This document shows positions 7,659-14,594 of a DNA stretch of 16,426 nucleotides, in pieces. The position numbers and the translations under genes were made by a program. Numbering within the stretch: the stretch's first letter is position 1; every line of letters begins with the position of its first letter. This DNA comes from a virus (taxonomy: Duplodnaviria > Heunggongvirae > Uroviricota > Caudoviricetes): IMG/VR virus record IMGVR_UViG_2609459799_000005. The stretch is one strand, 5' to 3'. The notes beneath the pieces were generated by a model that was not told where the DNA came from, did not search any database, and was given only the letters and a program-made list of their open reading frames with translations.

Positions 7659-8339
7659 TTATCCCTGTCGCCCGATAACCACGACCGTTCCGCCCCCACC
7701 TTCATCACGGGTGCTGATGTCCTGGGATATACGGCGGGAGCCAACCAGCATTTCCCCGTAAGGCACCGGCATCGGGTTCCCCTGGGCAATCATGTTATCC
7801 AGCGAGGAAAAGTACGTGTTCTGTCTGCCGTTATCCGTTGCGCGGTAATCCGGTGTTTTTGCCTTCGGGGCCAGCATCTGGGCCACACCGCCCAGAATCA
7901 TGCTGGCTCCAAGTGAAAACAGCATCGTGGTGGCAGAAAAACCACCGGCTGCCAGGGCTGAACCCCATAACGCCATTGATGCCCCGGCAGTGAAGAAAGA
8001 GCCCACGATGGCTGCCGCCCCCAGCACAATCTGCAGTCCACCCTTTCCGGCCCCGGCCAGTCGCGGCACAATATGGATGACCGTTCCCTCACCCAGCTGT
8101 TCGTGAAGACGGGCGTACACCGCCTCCGGTGCCGTGTCATAACCGGCAATACGTATCTGGTACCAGCCTTCGTTCATCTGACGGCGAAAGCCCGGCACCT
8201 GTAACGACAGCGCCCGGATGGCTTCCGCTGCCGTGTTCACATACAGGCTGAGGCGGCGGCCAAATCGTTGTAAATCCCCGTGAAGGCAGATGCGTGCCAG
8301 TGGCGGTGACGCCAGACAGAATGCGTTCGTCGTTGCCAT
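7659..8339 (-). CDS. I: Tail assembly protein I (lambda gpI-like)
   Basis: 226 aa. Conserved blocks ARICLHGDLQRFGRR, WYQIRIAG, VIHIVPRLAGAGKGG, LFSLGASMILGGVAQMLAPKAKTP and NTYFSSLDNMIAQGNPMPVPYGEM match lambda gpI. Shine-Dalgarno GGGAGAGG upstream. Confidence 0.85.
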   Translation of the reverse strand: MATTNAFCLASPPLARICLHGDLQRFGRRLSLYVNTAAEAIRALSLQVPGFRRQMNEGWYQIRIAGYDTAPEAVYARLHEQLGEGTVIHIVPRLAGAGKGGLQIVLGAAAIVGSFFTAGASMALWGSALAAGGFSATTMLFSLGASMILGGVAQMLAPKAKTPDYRATDNGRQNTYFSSLDNMIAQGNPMPVPYGEMLVGSRRISQDISTRDEGGGGTVVVIGRQG

Positions 8340-8393: not shown

Positions 8394-8885
8394 TCACCGT
8401 TGCCGCAGTAAATGGCGGCATGGTTCGGTATGGGTCTGTACCTGGCAGAGGTCATCCAGATCATCGTCACGTCGTACCATATCCCGGGCAGGGTTGAAGG
8501 CGTTGGCCGCCACCTCCACAGTCGGGGCCAGAATCGTGTAACCCGCCGCCTGCCGCCAGTTCAGTAACAGTGCAGTCATCATGATCCCCGCGGCCAGCGT
8601 GGACTTCGAGTTTTTCTTGGGGATAAGGATAAAAACTTCCTTGATATGGCGTACACCGGTCTGCGCATCGTAGGAGCCAAACAGGGCCGCCACCAGGTCA
8701 AACACCCACGGTGCACAGGACTCCCCGAACGTAGGGCTACCAGGTGCATCCACAATCCGCAGTTGTTTAAAAATCGCCAGGGCATGTGCGGCCTCGTCCG
8801 GATAAATCGGAGCCGGAATAATCGACAGCCCCTTTTTCAGGCGCTCTGCCCAGTCCGGGCAGGCTGTGCTCCATACAGGTATCAT
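8394..8885 (-). pseudogene. terL: Terminase large subunit, N-terminal fragment of about 163 aa (Terminase_1/HK97-type)
   Basis: Start overlaps the terS stop (ATGA). Contains a deviant P-loop-like segment (ILIPKKNSKSTLAAGIMMTALL) as in HK97-type TerL N-termini. The ORF ends after 163 aa, where full TerL is 450 aa or more, and gene I begins 55 bp downstream. Confidence 0.7.
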
Positions 8886-9445
8886 CCGTTGCCCTCATTA
8901 TCGTTATTCACCACCAGTCGGGGTGGCGGTGGCACCGCAAAACGGTTAGCCGCTTTTTTCGCGGCATCACCTTTTGCCGATTTTTTCCCGGTATCCCCTT
9001 TTTTATGGTGCGTGAACTGCGCCAGACGCCAGGCCGCATCCAGTGCCAGTTTCGGATCAATGCAGAGGTTTTCCACCAGGATCCGCCCCATGGCTTTCAC
9101 CGGATCGGGAAGACCATCCTCCATATATTCAATACCAGGAGACATCACCGCGGACGGTGGCATCTCCGGATTGTTTTCGTCCGGCTGTGGTATTGCAGCC
9201 GCCTCACGGCGACGGGGTTTATCCTCCTGCTCTGATTTTTTCTGCCGGTAAACAGGAACCTCATCCACCTCCACCGTCTCGCACTGTTTACGGGCTATAA
9301 ACGCGAGCACCTCCGGATCTTTTGCCAGCTGCGAGCCTTTAACCCTGGCTGTCTTCGCCGAATAACCGGCGGCAATGGCTGACGCTGTTTTGTTTTTCCC
9401 GGACATGAGCGCCAGCGCAAATTTTCGTTTTTGCGTTGTCAGCAC
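8882..9445 (-). CDS. terS: Terminase small subunit (Terminase_2/P27-type, N-terminal HTH)
   Basis: 187 aa. N-terminus MLTTQKRKFALALMSGKNKTASAIAAGYSAKTARVKGSQL... fits the conserved TerS signature (L-T-x-KQ-x-F ... A-A-x-x-AGYS-x-K-T-A). Immediately followed by terL. Confidence 0.75.
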   Translation of the reverse strand: MLTTQKRKFALALMSGKNKTASAIAAGYSAKTARVKGSQLAKDPEVLAFIARKQCETVEVDEVPVYRQKKSEQEDKPRRREAAAIPQPDENNPEMPPSAVMSPGIEYMEDGLPDPVKAMGRILVENLCIDPKLALDAAWRLAQFTHHKKGDTGKKSAKGDAAKKAANRFAVPPPPRLVVNNDNEGNG

Positions 9446-9519
9446 AGCCTCCTCCCGGGTCCAGAACGCACTCAGCCGGGTATGGTTCAGCCCATTTTTC
9501 CCGGCGTCTCATGCCGCAA

Positions 9520-9641
9520 ATGTTAACTGCTGCCTGGTTAACATTTGCTGAAAAAGCCTGTTAACATTTTTTCCGCACAACAAACTGAATAATAAAGATA
9601 AAAACCGCAAAAATGCCCGGGCAGCCAGTTAACATGTTAAC
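9520..9641. repeat. Array of GTTAACAT octamers (5 copies) including the interrupted palindrome ATGTTAAC-N9-GTTAACAT and an 18-bp perfect palindrome CAGTTAACATGTTAACTG; candidate cosB-like or operator site
   Basis: Copies at about 9520-9527, 9537-9544, 9560-9567 and 9628-9641 (two abutting). Lies in the AT-rich HNH-terS intergenic region where HK97-like phages carry cos. Confidence 0.5.
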
Positions 9642-9734
9642 TGCCCTGAAACGGGAATTTTTTCTCTGCGTGAGAGGGGGCGCGGTGTCCAAAGCGATCG
9701 TTTTTTACGCCGGATGATACCCCCCCGGGTTGGG

Positions 9735-10100
9735 TTACAGTCCGATGATGTCGTCCTCTCTGCCACTACCTCCGGACACCTCCGGCAGCGTCGGGTCCGG
9801 CATACCACTCGCCGCTTCACGAGCAGACTTTTGTCGATGGCATTCGGCACAGAGCGTCCAAAGATTCGTCTCCTCATTACCACCACCGAACTGAAGTGCA
9901 ATTCGGTGATCGAGTTCACTGTCACAGAGGTCAACCACACGACCACAGATACAGCACTGCCCGGCGTCCCTCAGCCAGATATGACGCTTGAGGGAAACAC
10001 GTGCACTGCCACTGACACGACGCTGCTCCCCCTTCAGAATATTCACCCGTCGGGTATTCAGTGTTTTGATTCTGCTCTGGAGTGTACGAAGCTCAGCCAT
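9735..10100 (-). CDS. HNH homing-type endonuclease (terminase-associated)
   Basis: 121 aa with CxxC...DHRIALQFGGGNEETNLWTLCAECHRQK, a zinc-binding HNH motif. Gene order HNH-cos-terS-terL is typical of HK97-like packaging modules. Confidence 0.85.
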   Translation of the reverse strand: MAELRTLQSRIKTLNTRRVNILKGEQRRVSGSARVSLKRHIWLRDAGQCCICGRVVDLCDSELDHRIALQFGGGNEETNLWTLCAECHRQKSAREAASGMPDPTLPEVSGGSGREDDIIGL

Positions 10101-10141
10101 GTAAAATCCCCGTCATATGGCAATCAGTAAAGGAAATAAAT

Positions 10142-10342
10142 ATGTCATCGAAAAACCGGACCCGCAGAACCACAACCCGCAATATCCGTTTCCCCAATCA
10201 CATAATTGAACAGATCAACATCGCCCTTGAGCATAAAGGGTCCGGTAACTTTTCAGCGTGGGTTATTGAAGCCTGCAGGAGAAGGCTGGCAACAGATGCA
10301 ACGCATCTGCGCCCGGCCAGCATGACAAATAACGAGAAATGA
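10142..10342 (+). CDS. Small ribbon-helix-helix-like protein (DUF3950/YlcI-like), transcribed against the late operon
   Basis: 66-aa ORF from the internal ATG, preceded by Shine-Dalgarno AAGGA. NIRFPNHIIEQINIALEHKGSGNFSAWVIEACRRRL resembles a beta-strand/helix RHH DNA-binding fold. The YlcI assignment is from memory, not verified. Confidence 0.55.
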   Translation: MSSKNRTRRTTTRNIRFPNHIIEQINIALEHKGSGNFSAWVIEACRRRLATDATHLRPASMTNNEK

Positions 10343-12884: not shown

Positions 12885-14594
12885 TTATATACGCCCTTTC
12901 AGATAAGTCATCCCCGGCTGCATCCAGTCAACAGGTGCTTTCTTAAAGGGCGTATTCCCGAACTCGCCCAACTTTGTGTTTCCTGCTTTCTTGTGATGCA
13001 TCAGATTCAGTTTGCCGTCTGTGGTCTGGGTGAAGAACGACATCAGGAACGGGTTACCAGTCCCGGTCATCGCCACGACGTCAGGTAACGCTACATCGGT
13101 ATACAGATAAATTCCCAGACCGAACTGGTTGTTGGTCAGTGCGCCTGACAGTCGAAACTTACAGCTCAGTCTGCCACCCCGTGTCAGCAGGGAGACTGCG
13201 TCATCCACCGGGCGCGTCAGGGACCAGGCTTTATTGCTCTGCTTGGTGATCTTAAATACACCATCTGACAACTGAATTCCGCCATTCTTAATGCTCCAGC
13301 CCTGCGCAGCAGCATCTCCGGCTGTCGGCAACAGGGAGATTGTGCGTACGGATGCATCTTCAGACGGCCCCGATGGCGTGTCGCCGCCGGGCGAGGGTTT
13401 GATTTCCGGTGCCTTACCACTAATGAAGGCTAAGGTGCGACCGGCTACGTTCAGAATAGCAGTTGCCATACGATCGGGAATAATGCCACGACGCGCCCAT
13501 GAGCTGAAATGCGTCGGGCGATTTGATGATACCCAGTTTTTGTTCGTTCGGGATGCCGAACCGTAATAACCAGACCCGACAATATCAGGATCTTCTGACG
13601 GGTTGTTTGTCGGTGTATTAACTCCGCTACCATCGGTCATAAAGGGAACAAAATAAATCTGCTGGGATTCTTTACCTTTATATGCACCATATACCACTTC
13701 ATATTGTGTACCGTGTTCTTGTTTCCACGCGTATGTCGTGTCGCCACAAATCCAGGGGACTGATGCCGGACTTCCACCGTGACACTGCGCCGCCAGCCCG
13801 GCAAGGTCAGCACGGAACTGCTGTACCATTGCAAGAAATGCTGCTGGCTGCTGGGCGTAACTGGCATTCTTCATATCGAATTCCCCCTGCATCCAGCATA
13901 TCGCCAGCAAAACGTTTTTCGGGTTTTTCTGCAATGCTGCCTTCGTGCGGAAAAGCAGATCCTGATATAACGGCTTACCCACTCCCCAGCGAGCCGAATC
14001 CTGACTGGCCCCCGTGGACTCGCTGAATGTCCCCTCCGTGCCCTGGGTGAATGCCGAACCACCACGACAGCATGGTACCAGCAGGATCCCCGCATTATTA
14101 GGGATATACGGAAGCAGTTTTTTGGCAATATGTAAGCCCTGTCCGACACAGCCGTACTGCCCTTTGCTCAGGTCAGCCCGGGGATGGTTAATCGTACTCA
14201 TATCCTGAACATCATGCAGACAATGGTCAGCAGGAATGATGTCGTTAAATACGCATACTTCACCACCGGGAGTCACTGTGTTACGACGGGCCAGTTGCTT
14301 AATGCGCGGATGGGGCGCATCGTATGAATCCGGAAGCGGAAGCCCTTCACCGTAAGCCATGGCATTAGACTGCCCGGCCAGTACGATGACGTAGTACCAC
14401 TCCGGCTCAGTTGCACCACTGACGACCACATCACCTTCTGCGACAATCGCCTGAATAAGTGCTGCGCCATCATCCGTATACGAAGAAAACGGCCCGCCGT
14501 ATGGTTGCCATCCTTCACGAATTTTTTGAGCAAGTGCATCAGCAAGGTCTGACGGCGATACCGCCCTGACAACATCATAGTGTTTAAATGCCAT
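12885..14594 (-). CDS. nanS: Prophage sialate O-acetylesterase (NanS-p-like; N-terminal DUF1737-like region plus SASA/SGNH-type esterase domain)
   Basis: 569 aa. YYVIVLAGQSNAMAYGEG carries the GQSN catalytic-serine motif of 9-O-acetylesterases. Position between the tRNA module and the lysis genes mirrors nanS-p in EHEC lambdoid prophages. Confidence 0.8.
   Translation of the reverse strand: MAFKHYDVVRAVSPSDLADALAQKIREGWQPYGGPFSSYTDDGAALIQAIVAEGDVVVSGATEPEWYYVIVLAGQSNAMAYGEGLPLPDSYDAPHPRIKQLARRNTVTPGGEVCVFNDIIPADHCLHDVQDMSTINHPRADLSKGQYGCVGQGLHIAKKLLPYIPNNAGILLVPCCRGGSAFTQGTEGTFSESTGASQDSARWGVGKPLYQDLLFRTKAALQKNPKNVLLAICWMQGEFDMKNASYAQQPAAFLAMVQQFRADLAGLAAQCHGGSPASVPWICGDTTYAWKQEHGTQYEVVYGAYKGKESQQIYFVPFMTDGSGVNTPTNNPSEDPDIVGSGYYGSASRTNKNWVSSNRPTHFSSWARRGIIPDRMATAILNVAGRTLAFISGKAPEIKPSPGGDTPSGPSEDASVRTISLLPTAGDAAAQGWSIKNGGIQLSDGVFKITKQSNKAWSLTRPVDDAVSLLTRGGRLSCKFRLSGALTNNQFGLGIYLYTDVALPDVVAMTGTGNPFLMSFFTQTTDGKLNLMHHKKAGNTKLGEFGNTPFKKAPVDWMQPGMTYLKGRI

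What the first reader, a model, noticed from the sequence alone, without database searches (positions are those of the whole stretch)
9520..9641. GTTAACAT octamer array with an 18-bp perfect palindrome in the HNH-terS intergenic region
Five copies of GTTAACAT (both orientations) lie within about 120 bp, arranged as ATGTTAAC-N9-GTTAACAT plus CAGTTAACATGTTAACTG. This is the signature of a dimeric DNA-binding protein site array. The location matches where HK97-like phages carry cos, so these may be TerS recognition (cosB-like) elements; alternatively an operator for the nearby RHH protein or an HNH target.
Basis: partly seen in the sequence, partly recalled or inferred. Interest (0 to 1): 0.5.

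Follow-up and report, generated by a model that had tools for sequence, protein, structure and literature searches.

The report
Packaging-signal repeats next to phage cos
The GTTAACAT repeats are real and sit just inside the DNA end of a very common E. coli prophage family, where they most likely act as docking sites for the small terminase that starts DNA packaging; this is an uncharacterised example of a known kind of signal.

Summary
There are five exact GTTAACAT octamers, an 18-bp perfect palindrome and a 12-nt-arm inverted repeat between HNH and terS, which are both on the minus strand.

A close relative, Stx1 phage Lys8385Vzw, has ends mapped with PhageTerm. These place the cos cut 32 bp from the palindrome, so the array spans +32 to +155 of the first-packaged end and terS starts at +230.

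Across more than 70 non-redundant relatives (Enterobacterales, Acinetobacter, Pseudomonas, Bordetella, Burkholderia-type), (G)TTAAC copies recur at this spot. They usually overlap the terS start codon.
- The N-terminal Leu codon is TTA in 62 of 71 lineages, against 6% of other Leu codons in terS.
- Where the terS start has moved away, the sites stay next to cosN.
- Loci with the same cosN block and a 64-74% identical TerL, but a TerS whose N-terminal helix-turn-helix is replaced, lack TTAAC and carry other repeats there.
- One locus has ATGTACAT at the same positions and an altered helix-turn-helix.

The best reading is a cosB-like recognition array for an SF6/SPP1-type TerS. Binding itself is untested. 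The RHH-operator and HNH-target ideas are not supported. This is a new member of a known kind, of moderate interest.

The parts
9735..10100 (-). HNH endonuclease gene (121 aa), the last gene before cos
   Evidence: Pfam HNH PF01844, 31.1 bits against a cut-off of 21.4. Annotated as HNH endonuclease in related records.
9720..9726 (-). G7 run on the right-end side of cos, conserved in relatives and in HK97
   Evidence: Read from the sequence. The same G-run is seen in distant loci and at the HK97 right end.
9675..9684 (-). Inferred cosN: the 10-nt 3' cohesive end, CGCGCCCCCT on the minus strand
   Evidence: Lys8385Vzw has PhageTerm-mapped 3' cohesive ends CGCCCCCCCT. Its record ends ...GGACACCGCCCCCCCT and starts CTCACGCAGAG.... 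The Acinetobacter phages fEg-Aba01/fLi-Aba03 have CGCCCCCCAT at the homologous position, confirmed on a gel.
9653..9674 (-). Left-end conserved block CTCACGCAGAGAAAAAATTCCC (+1 to +22, includes an A6 tract). It is shared by loci with different TerS DNA-binding domains.
9626..9643 (.). Proximal site pair: the 18-bp perfect palindrome CAGTTAACATGTTAACTG (+32 to +49). It sits where relatives have the terS ribosome-binding site and start codon (GTAAAC ATG TTA AC).
9568..9625 (-). 58-bp AT-rich spacer with T-tracts at +62, +71, +79 and +91, possibly an intrinsic bend. It has no IHF consensus.
   Evidence: L152 has a spacer of the same length but unrelated sequence.
9560..9567 (-). Third site, ATGTTAAC on the minus strand (+108 to +115)
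9516..9548 (.). Distal site pair: the perfect inverted repeat GCAAATGTTAAC-N9-GTTAACATTTGC (+127 to +159), which contains octamers 4 and 5
8882..9445 (-). terS (187 aa): a small terminase with an SF6/SPP1-type N-terminal helix-turn-helix. It is the proposed reader of the sites.
   Evidence: Pfam Terminase_2, 36 bits against a cut-off of 26.1. Profile hits to solved TerS DNA-binding domains. AF2 N-terminal domain pLDDT 84-91, superposing on SF6 G1P DBD 4ZC3 with TM 0.84 and rmsd 1.6 A.
8394..8885 (-). Truncated terL remnant (163 aa; intact relatives are about 553 aa). The prophage in this window cannot package itself.
   Evidence: Pfam TerL_ATPase, partial match. Similarity switches at about 8420-8428. 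Intact arrangement seen.

Best explanation
The array is the cosB-like part of the cos site of a large family of lambdoid E. coli prophages, including the Stx phages BP-4795, 2851, 1717 and Lys8385Vzw. These phages package DNA with an HK97-type TerL plus HNH nuclease and an SF6/SPP1-type small terminase.

Shown: the virion left end of a near-identical phage begins at window position 9674 (minus strand), with a 10-nt 3' overhang at 9675-9684. The five GTTAAC(AT) sites therefore lie at +34/+42, +110, +133 and +148, between the nicking site and terS (+230). The (G)TTAAC motif recurs at this position throughout the TerS family. It is kept at synonymous codon positions. It stays beside cosN when the terS start moves. 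It is replaced by other repeats when the TerS N-terminal HTH domain is replaced or altered.

Inferred: the flexibly tethered N-terminal HTH domains of the oligomeric TerS bind the proximal palindrome and the distal three sites. The 58-bp T-tract spacer lets the DNA bend or wrap, so that both clusters contact one TerS assembly. This anchors TerL and HNH over cosN, 32 bp away, to make the staggered nicks and start packaging towards terS.

The five-site, 124-bp layout is a lineage-specific expansion of a simpler ancestral site that overlaps the terS start codon.
For: Position:
- Lys8385Vzw has PhageTerm 3' cohesive ends CGCCCCCCCT. Its record starts CTCACGCAGAGAAAAAATTCCCGTTTCAGGGCAGTTAACATGTTAACTGG and ends GGACACCGCCCCCCCT.
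- The homologous cut in Acinetobacter phages was mapped and confirmed on a gel.

Conservation:
- In 71 non-redundant lineages, TTAAC/GTTAA density is 27.9 per kb in -75..+15 of terS against 1.5 per kb in the flanks.
- GTTAA is the second most enriched 5-mer in the non-coding 45 nt upstream, 72 observed against 4.8 expected.
- The N-terminal Leu codon is TTA in 62 of 71 lineages, against 40 of 664 elsewhere in terS.
- Loci whose terS start is displaced keep the sites next to the cos block: the window, L019, L020, L323 and L332.

Covariation:
- Among loci anchored on the same cos block, 52 of 52 with an HTH-type TerS have at least 2 hits within 70 nt, and 0 of 4 with an Arg/Gly-type TerS do.
- The Arg/Gly-type loci carry TTCAAAT x2, AATCAGCAAATGG x2 or other repeats instead.
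- They share the TerS C-terminal domain, 62% identity, and a TerL that is 64-74% identical.
- L152 has ATGTACAT x4 at offsets 6/67/22, against the window's 6/68/23. Its HTH changes I24K, A25R and V35N fall in model helices 2 and 3.

Reader protein:
- Pfam Terminase_2 and an SF6 DBD-like fold.

Constraint among close relatives:
- 0 of 38 motif positions vary.
Against: - No binding or packaging experiment exists for this family.
- In HK97 itself, the mapped TerS site is a single 15-bp element at +15 to +29 that includes an A/T tract. The equally conserved A-tract block at +12 to +17 could therefore be part or all of the TerS contact here.
- The site spacings (8, 68, 23 and 15 bp between hexamer centres) fit no simple dimer geometry.
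- The motif-swap case (L152) is a single locus.
- The statistics are not corrected for shared ancestry.
- The evidence for a bend in the spacer is weak (16 of 2000 and 116 of 2000 shuffles), and there is no IHF consensus.
Confidence: 0.78

Rival explanations
1. The octamers are fossils of former terS starts or translation-initiation features. ATG-TTA-AC encodes the invariant Met-Leu-Thr N-terminus, so the E. coli copies would be non-functional leftovers of duplications or insertions that moved the start 183 bp downstream.
For: The palindrome sits exactly where relatives have the SD and ATG TTA ACA. Every minus-strand ATGTTAAC opens a short MLT... reading frame.
Against: - Copies occur upstream in non-coding form without an ATG in many lineages: GTTAACC, AGTTAAA x3, CGTTAAC x3, GTTAATCG.
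- Similarity between the copies does not extend beyond about 12 nt.
- The copies are invariant among 58 close relatives.
- The 24-codon frame shows 4 synonymous and 6 non-synonymous variants, so it is not a gene.
- The motif disappears when the TerS HTH is replaced, and changes at all four sites in L152.
Confidence: 0.07
2. The array is a transcriptional operator or promoter. It would be bound by the neighbouring RHH-like YlcI/YnfO (DUF3950) protein, or by a host regulator such as ArcA (TGTTAA repeats), to control terS or an antisense transcript.
For: - The elements have dyad symmetry.
- A DUF3950 gene lies at 10142-10342, divergent from HNH.
- A weak sigma-70-like match, TTAACA-18-TAACAT, is built from two octamers on the + strand.
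- TGTTAA resembles the ArcA half-site (from my own knowledge).
Against: - YlcI homologues are absent from all 20 and all 80 distant loci that keep TTAAC arrays.
- The motif tracks the TerS N-terminal domain.
- The motif is kept in GC-rich Bordetella- and Burkholderia-type phages.
- The spacings in the window (8, 68, 23, 15) do not match the 11-bp direct repeats of ArcA boxes.
- The promoter match is 9 of 12 only.
Confidence: 0.07
3. The sites are read by TerL or by the HNH nuclease, as an accessory cleavage or termination element comparable to lambda cosQ/I2, and not by TerS.
For: HNH and an HK97-type TerL accompany the array in most loci. HNH proteins stimulate cos cleavage in HK97.
Against: - Loci with the same cos block and a 64-74% identical TerL lack TTAAC when TerS has a different N-terminal domain.
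- The mapped nicks lie 32 bp outside the array.
Confidence: 0.05
4. The inverted repeats act as RNA hairpins in the late transcript, for example as processing or attenuation signals.
For: The leader folds somewhat better than shuffles, z = -2.4. The 12-nt arms would give a stable stem.
Against: - No terminator-like site and no Rfam family.
- In other lineages the copies are direct repeats that cannot pair.
- The motif covaries with a protein domain, not with pairing partners.
Confidence: 0.03

Closest known systems
Phage lambda cosB (R3-I1-R2-R1, bound by gpNu1)
   Same: It lies just inside the left end, between the nicking site and the small-terminase gene. It spans about 120 bp, has several short repeats in both orientations, and has a bend-prone segment between a proximal and a distal group. 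Its specificity is set by the TerS N-terminal HTH.
   Different: The TerS sequence and the motif are unrelated. Lambda has a 12-nt 5' overhang and no HNH. Lambda uses an IHF site, and none is found here. Binding is not demonstrated here.
HK97 cos and its small-terminase site (+15 to +29; PMC11331095)
   Same: The layout is HNH-cos-terS-terL, with a 10-nt 3' overhang, a G-run on the right-end side and an A/T tract just inside the left end.
   Different: HK97 gp1 shows no sequence similarity to this TerS. HK97 uses one 15-bp site that DNA threads past, not an array of short repeats. HK97 has no GTTAAC array.
SPP1/SF6 G1P small terminase and its pac boxes
   Same: The N-terminal HTH DNA-binding domain is homologous: Pfam Terminase_2, and TM 0.84 to 4ZC3. 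There are multiple contact points on DNA flanking the cut.
   Different: SPP1 and SF6 package by headful (pac) with no cohesive ends. Their boxes are different sequences. Their in vitro binding is weak and poorly specific.
Mapped cos ends of Stx1 phage Lys8385Vzw (PMC7946995) and of Acinetobacter phages fEg-Aba01/fLi-Aba03 (PMC7354433)
   Same: They have the same TerS family and the same cos block. Lys8385Vzw carries the same five-site array.
   Different: Those papers report only the cohesive-end sequence. I found no mention of the repeats or of a TerS site in the passages I read.
PaP3 small terminase binding a 20-bp cos oligonucleotide (PMC7672466)
   Same: It is a cos phage with an HTH-type TerS. 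Adjacent HTHs are proposed to grip a short cos segment.
   Different: It has a different sequence and a single site, and it is only a weak match to this TerS.

Membership tests
cosB-type small-terminase recognition subsite of a cos site | Lies just inside the first-packaged end, between the nicking site and terS | tested here: met
   The ends of the near-identical phage Lys8385Vzw place the array at +32..+155 and terS at +230.
cosB-type small-terminase recognition subsite of a cos site | Several copies of a short motif, more than chance would give | tested here: met
   5 copies against 0.44 expected. The motif family is enriched 18-fold across 71 lineages.
cosB-type small-terminase recognition subsite of a cos site | The motif changes when the TerS DNA-binding domain changes, while cosN and TerL stay the same | tested here: met
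   52 of 52 HTH-type loci against 0 of 4 Arg/Gly-type loci. The C-terminal domain and TerL are shared. L152 shows a motif swap.
cosB-type small-terminase recognition subsite of a cos site | TerS binds the sites physically | not testable with these tools
   Needs EMSA, footprinting or a structure.
cosB-type small-terminase recognition subsite of a cos site | The sites are needed for packaging initiation | not testable with these tools
   Needs cos-plasmid transduction or mutant phage.
Lambda-style cosB specifically | An IHF site between proximal and distal repeats | tested here: not met
   No WATCAANNNNTTR match with up to 1 mismatch in 9446-9734. There are only phased T-tracts, with weak support.
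HK97-type cos packaging system | An HNH nuclease gene directly upstream of cos, with terS and terL downstream | tested here: met
   terL is truncated in this window.
HK97-type cos packaging system | 10-nt 3' cohesive ends | tested here: met
   Met by homology to mapped relatives: 9 of 10 nt identical to the Lys8385Vzw overhang. Not measured for this prophage.
HK97-type cos packaging system | A small terminase homologous to HK97 gp1 | tested here: not met
   BLASTP finds no significant similarity, E = 0.91.
Terminase_2 (SF6/SPP1-type) small terminase | Pfam PF03592 above its gathering score | tested here: met
   36 bits against a cut-off of 26.1, residues 2-57.
Terminase_2 (SF6/SPP1-type) small terminase | N-terminal helix-turn-helix DNA-binding fold | tested here: met
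   AF2 residues 1-56 have pLDDT 84-91. Foldseek hit to 4ZC3 with TM 0.84 and rmsd 1.6 A.
Terminase_2 (SF6/SPP1-type) small terminase | Ring oligomer (about 9 subunits) | not tested
   The single-sequence model is unreliable beyond residue 57.
Operator of the adjacent YlcI/YnfO (DUF3950) protein | The regulator gene co-occurs with the motif | tested here: not met
   Found in 75 of 80 close loci but in 0 of 20 and 0 of 80 distant loci that keep the motif.
Known structured RNA or intrinsic terminator | Match to an Rfam model or to a terminator pattern | tested here: not met
   No Rfam hit at E <= 1. No terminator-like site.

The most novel reading that the evidence does not exclude
The cos sites of this widespread group of HNH-dependent packaging systems are modular. 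A constant core (cosN plus A-tract) is read by TerL and HNH. It is joined to an exchangeable cassette made of the TerS N-terminal DNA-binding module and its matching repeats: GTTAAC, TGTACA, TTCAAAT or AATCAGCAAATGG. These cassettes would define packaging-specificity groups among co-resident prophages. Any element that keeps the right repeats, including defective prophages such as this one (intact cos, terS and HNH, but no terL or head genes), could then be packaged in trans by a helper of the same group. In most members the TerS site also overlaps the terS start codon, which could couple TerS occupancy to its own expression.
Probability: 0.3. Interest if true: 0.6.

Novelty: new member of a known kind. 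Interest (0 to 1): 0.4.

Why it matters
This cos region, unannotated in the records I inspected, is present in 1277 of 5426 complete E. coli genomes, with up to seven copies per genome, and in many Shiga-toxin phages.

Knowing which bases the small terminase reads would have three uses:
- It would allow prediction of which co-resident or defective prophages can be packaged by which helper.
- It would help explain the mobilisation of virulence genes in prophage-rich STEC strains.
- It would give phage engineers a compact packaging signal.

How HTH-type small terminases recognise DNA is still unsettled. A 2022 review describes it as elusive and controversial. The one TerS:DNA complex I came across, HK97, is of a different type. 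A family with a short, clear repeat and natural specificity swaps is a convenient test system. The concept itself, a cosB, is well established.

Tried and rejected
- Mapped ends in the closest phage records: all 94 hits are prophage-derived or rotated records. The phi330 note was uninformative.
- Phage D3 as a second mapped relative: it has a different TerS family and no TTAAC.
- More examples of the ATGTACAT variant: none in IMG/VR, phages or E. coli genomes, so it remains a single case.
- IHF site in the spacer: none.
- Bend by T-tract phasing: only weakly supported.
- RNA explanations: fold z = -2.4, no terminator, no Rfam hit.
- Small-protein idea (24-aa MLTGCPGIFAVFIFIIQFVVRKKC from the palindrome ATG): 4 synonymous and 6 non-synonymous variants, so rejected.
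- Alignment of the window and L152 spacers: no convincing homology.
- Pfam on the Arg/Gly-type TerS: no family found.
- Single-sequence AF2 of TerS: only residues 1-57 are reliable, so ring geometry could not be assessed.
- ArcA box idea (from my own knowledge): the spacings do not fit.
- Literature search for GTTAAC with terminase or cos: nothing relevant.

Full report
**Observation.** GTTAACAT occurs five times in the window, all between 9520 and 9641, against 0.44 expected; no shuffle of 200 reaches five. Five of the nine GTTAAC hexamers in the window are here. CAGTTAACATGTTAACTG (9626-9643) is a perfect palindrome. The coding strand is the minus strand. An HNH gene lies at 9735-10100, and terS at 8882-9445 (Pfam Terminase_2) has a GTG start behind a GGAGGAGG ribosome-binding site. 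Below, positions are counted on the minus strand.

**What the element belongs to.** The 289-bp spacer is 95-100% identical in 94 phage records, mostly Stx-converting lambdoid phages such as BP-4795, 2851, 1717 and YYZ-2008. It is also present in 1277 of 5426 complete E. coli genomes, at up to seven places per genome, and is not annotated. In an intact copy the order is HNH, spacer, TerS, TerL, capsid, portal. In this window terL is cut after about 155 codons and joined to tail genes, so the prophage is defective.

**Where the DNA is cut.**
- A paper on the Stx1 phage Lys8385Vzw reports PhageTerm-mapped 3' cohesive ends, CGCCCCCCCT.
- Its record begins CTCACGCAGAGAAAAAATTCCCGTTTCAGGGCAGTTAACATGTTAACTGG and ends GGACACCGCCCCCCCT. 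This is the window sequence with a few substitutions.
- The same junction follows independently from Acinetobacter phages fEg-Aba01 and fLi-Aba03. Their 10-nt 3' end, CGCCCCCCAT, was mapped and confirmed by heating and cooling restriction digests.
- By homology, the window's overhang is therefore 9684-9675 (CGCGCCCCCT) and the left end starts at 9674.
- The palindrome is at +32 to +49. The other octamers are at +108, +131 and +148. terS starts at +230.
- This is the position of cosB in lambda and of the TerS site in HK97 (+15 to +29).

**Conservation in distant relatives.** TerS homologues of 37-65% identity were collected from 20 bacterial genomes and about 240 viral contigs, and from isolated phages of Salmonella, Acinetobacter, Burkholderia, Bordetella and Pseudomonas.
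- Nearly all share a G-run, a GGACACCGC-type right end, and the left-end block C(T/A)CACGC(A/G)CAGA(A/T)6-8TCCC. One or more (G)TTAAC copies follow.
- In most Enterobacterales the sequence is GT(A/T)AAC ATG TTA ACA, so the site pair overlaps the terS start codon. The window's palindrome occupies exactly that position.
- Other lineages show TGTTAA-N5-TTAACA around the ATG, three CGTTAAC copies 13-14 bp apart, or three AGTTAAA direct repeats.
- Over 71 non-redundant lineages, the density of TTAAC/GTTAA is 27.9 per kb next to the terS start against 1.5 per kb in the flanks.
- In the non-coding 45 nt upstream, GTTAA is the second most enriched 5-mer after the A-tract.
- The N-terminal leucine codon is TTA in 62 of 71 lineages, but in only 6% of other leucine codons in terS. 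The DNA itself is therefore under selection, not only the peptide.
- Where the terS start lies further downstream (this family, L019, L020, L298, L319, L323, L332), the sites remain next to the cos block. In L323 and L332 they no longer contain an ATG.
- These counts are not corrected for shared ancestry.

**Who reads the sites.** A scan anchored on the cos block alone, which is unbiased with respect to TerS, gave 59 distinct loci.
- All 52 with an HTH-type TerS have at least two TTAAC/GTTAA hits within 70 nt. None of the 4 with an Arg/Gly-rich N-terminus and no HTH do.
- Those four, plus two shorter loci, carry other repeats at the same place: TTCAAAT x2, AATCAGCAAATGG x2, or TTTGATT...AATCAAA.
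- Their TerS keeps the C-terminal domain, at 62% identity. Their TerL is 64-74% identical to TerL of TTAAC-bearing loci.
- One locus, L152, has the standard cos block followed by ATGTACAT four times, at +34, +40, +107 and +129. The offsets are 6/67/22, against 6/68/23 in the window. The spacer has the same length but a different sequence.
- The L152 TerS differs from the otherwise conserved HTH at I24K, A25R and V35N. In the model these lie in helices 2 and 3 of a four-helix domain. That domain superposes on the SF6 G1P DNA-binding domain with TM 0.84 and rmsd 1.6 A (sequence-level support).
- The repeats therefore track the TerS N-terminal domain, not TerL, cosN or the start codon.

**Mechanism.** The position, the conservation and the covariation are shown. 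The following steps are inferred from established terminase biology (lambda gpNu1/cosB; SPP1/SF6 G1P; HK97).
- The HTH domains of an oligomeric TerS bind the proximal palindrome and the distal three sites.
- The T-tract spacer bends or wraps the DNA. Support for phasing is weak, and there is no IHF consensus.
- The complex places TerL and HNH on cosN, 32 bp away, to make the staggered nicks and begin packaging towards terS.
- The uneven spacings argue for flexibly tethered domains and against a rigid dimer.
- A caveat: the conserved A-tract block at +12 to +17 corresponds in position to part of the HK97 TerS site, and it may also be contacted.

**Rival explanations.**
- Fossil starts or translation features: this does not explain the non-coding copies, their invariance among 58 close relatives (0 of 38 positions variable, P = 0.0066), or the covariation. 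The 24-codon frame opened by the palindrome shows no coding constraint.
- Operator of the adjacent YlcI/YnfO protein: the gene is absent from all 100 distant loci that keep the motif.
- RNA structure: modest fold z-score, no terminator and no Rfam hit.

**Comparison and novelty.** The element works like lambda cosB. It combines an HK97-type nicking system with an SF6/SPP1-type TerS DNA-binding domain. It fails membership of the HK97 TerS family and lacks lambda's IHF site. The two papers that mapped ends in this family report only the overhang in the passages I read. A search for GTTAAC with terminase or cos found nothing relevant. As far as I could check, the recognition motif is undescribed. 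It is a new member of a known kind.

Noticed in passing
window 8394-8885 and about 8420-8428: terL is truncated after about 155 codons and joined to the tail K/I region (tail assembly protein I at 7659-8339). The prophage has lost its head genes and most tail genes but keeps an intact HNH, cos and terS, so it could only be packaged by a helper.
   Followed up: partly
L152:1060-1200 (IMGVR_UViG_2816332609_000004): This locus has the same cos block and the same site geometry, but every site reads ATGTACAT instead of GTTAACAT. Its TerS HTH is altered (AAKRAGYS, ARNKG). It looks like a natural specificity swap, but only one example was found.
   Followed up: yes
L283, L394, L292, L377, L282, L369 (just after the CTCACGC.CAGAAAA block): These small terminases share the C-terminal domain of this family but have an Arg/Gly-rich N-terminus (MAGVKGRSGG..GAGRP) in place of the HTH, and no Pfam match. 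Different short repeats (TTCAAAT x2, AATCAGCAAATGG x2) occupy the place of the TTAAC sites.
   Followed up: partly
L277 (phage PPompW_132418), equivalent to window about 9720-9723: An IS110-family element, ISEc20, abuts the G-run of cos in the PPompW prophages. HNH and the lysis genes are missing beyond it, and tRNA genes and Q follow instead.
   Followed up: no
window 9561-9635, minus strand: The ATG of the palindrome opens a 24-codon hydrophobic frame (MLTGCPGIFAVFIFIIQFVVRKKC) that ends in the TAA of the third octamer. Variants among relatives are 4 synonymous and 6 non-synonymous, so it is probably not a gene.
   Followed up: yes
window 9538-9567, + strand: A weak sigma-70-like match (TTAACA-18-TAACAT, 9 of 12) is formed by two of the octamers. 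It points antisense to the late genes.
   Followed up: no
window 10142-10342, + strand: A YlcI/YnfO-family (DUF3950) gene lies divergent from HNH, against the direction of the late operon. It is confined to the close E. coli relatives among the loci examined.
   Followed up: partly
L001 (phage phi330, PV189401), equivalent to window about 9613-10083: That record annotates a + strand hypothetical ORF across the HNH gene instead of the HNH gene itself. The ORF (window 9714-10130 +) has no Pfam match.
   Followed up: partly
L007, L011, L014-L016, L021, and the HK97 right end (L104:700-790): Many relatives, and HK97, have an AT-rich segment with AATGAT/ATCATT-type repeats between HNH and the G-run. 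In the window's family it is absent, and the HNH stop codon lies 8 nt from the G-run.
   Followed up: no
window 12885-14594, minus strand: A 569-aa SASA-family carbohydrate esterase with DUF1737 and DUF6645 domains. Such esterases are typical of Stx-phage late regions.
   Followed up: no
window 9446-9734 against E. coli genomes: The cos spacer occurs at 2999 places in 1277 of 5426 complete genomes, up to seven per genome, six of them on plasmids. It carries no annotation.
   Followed up: partly
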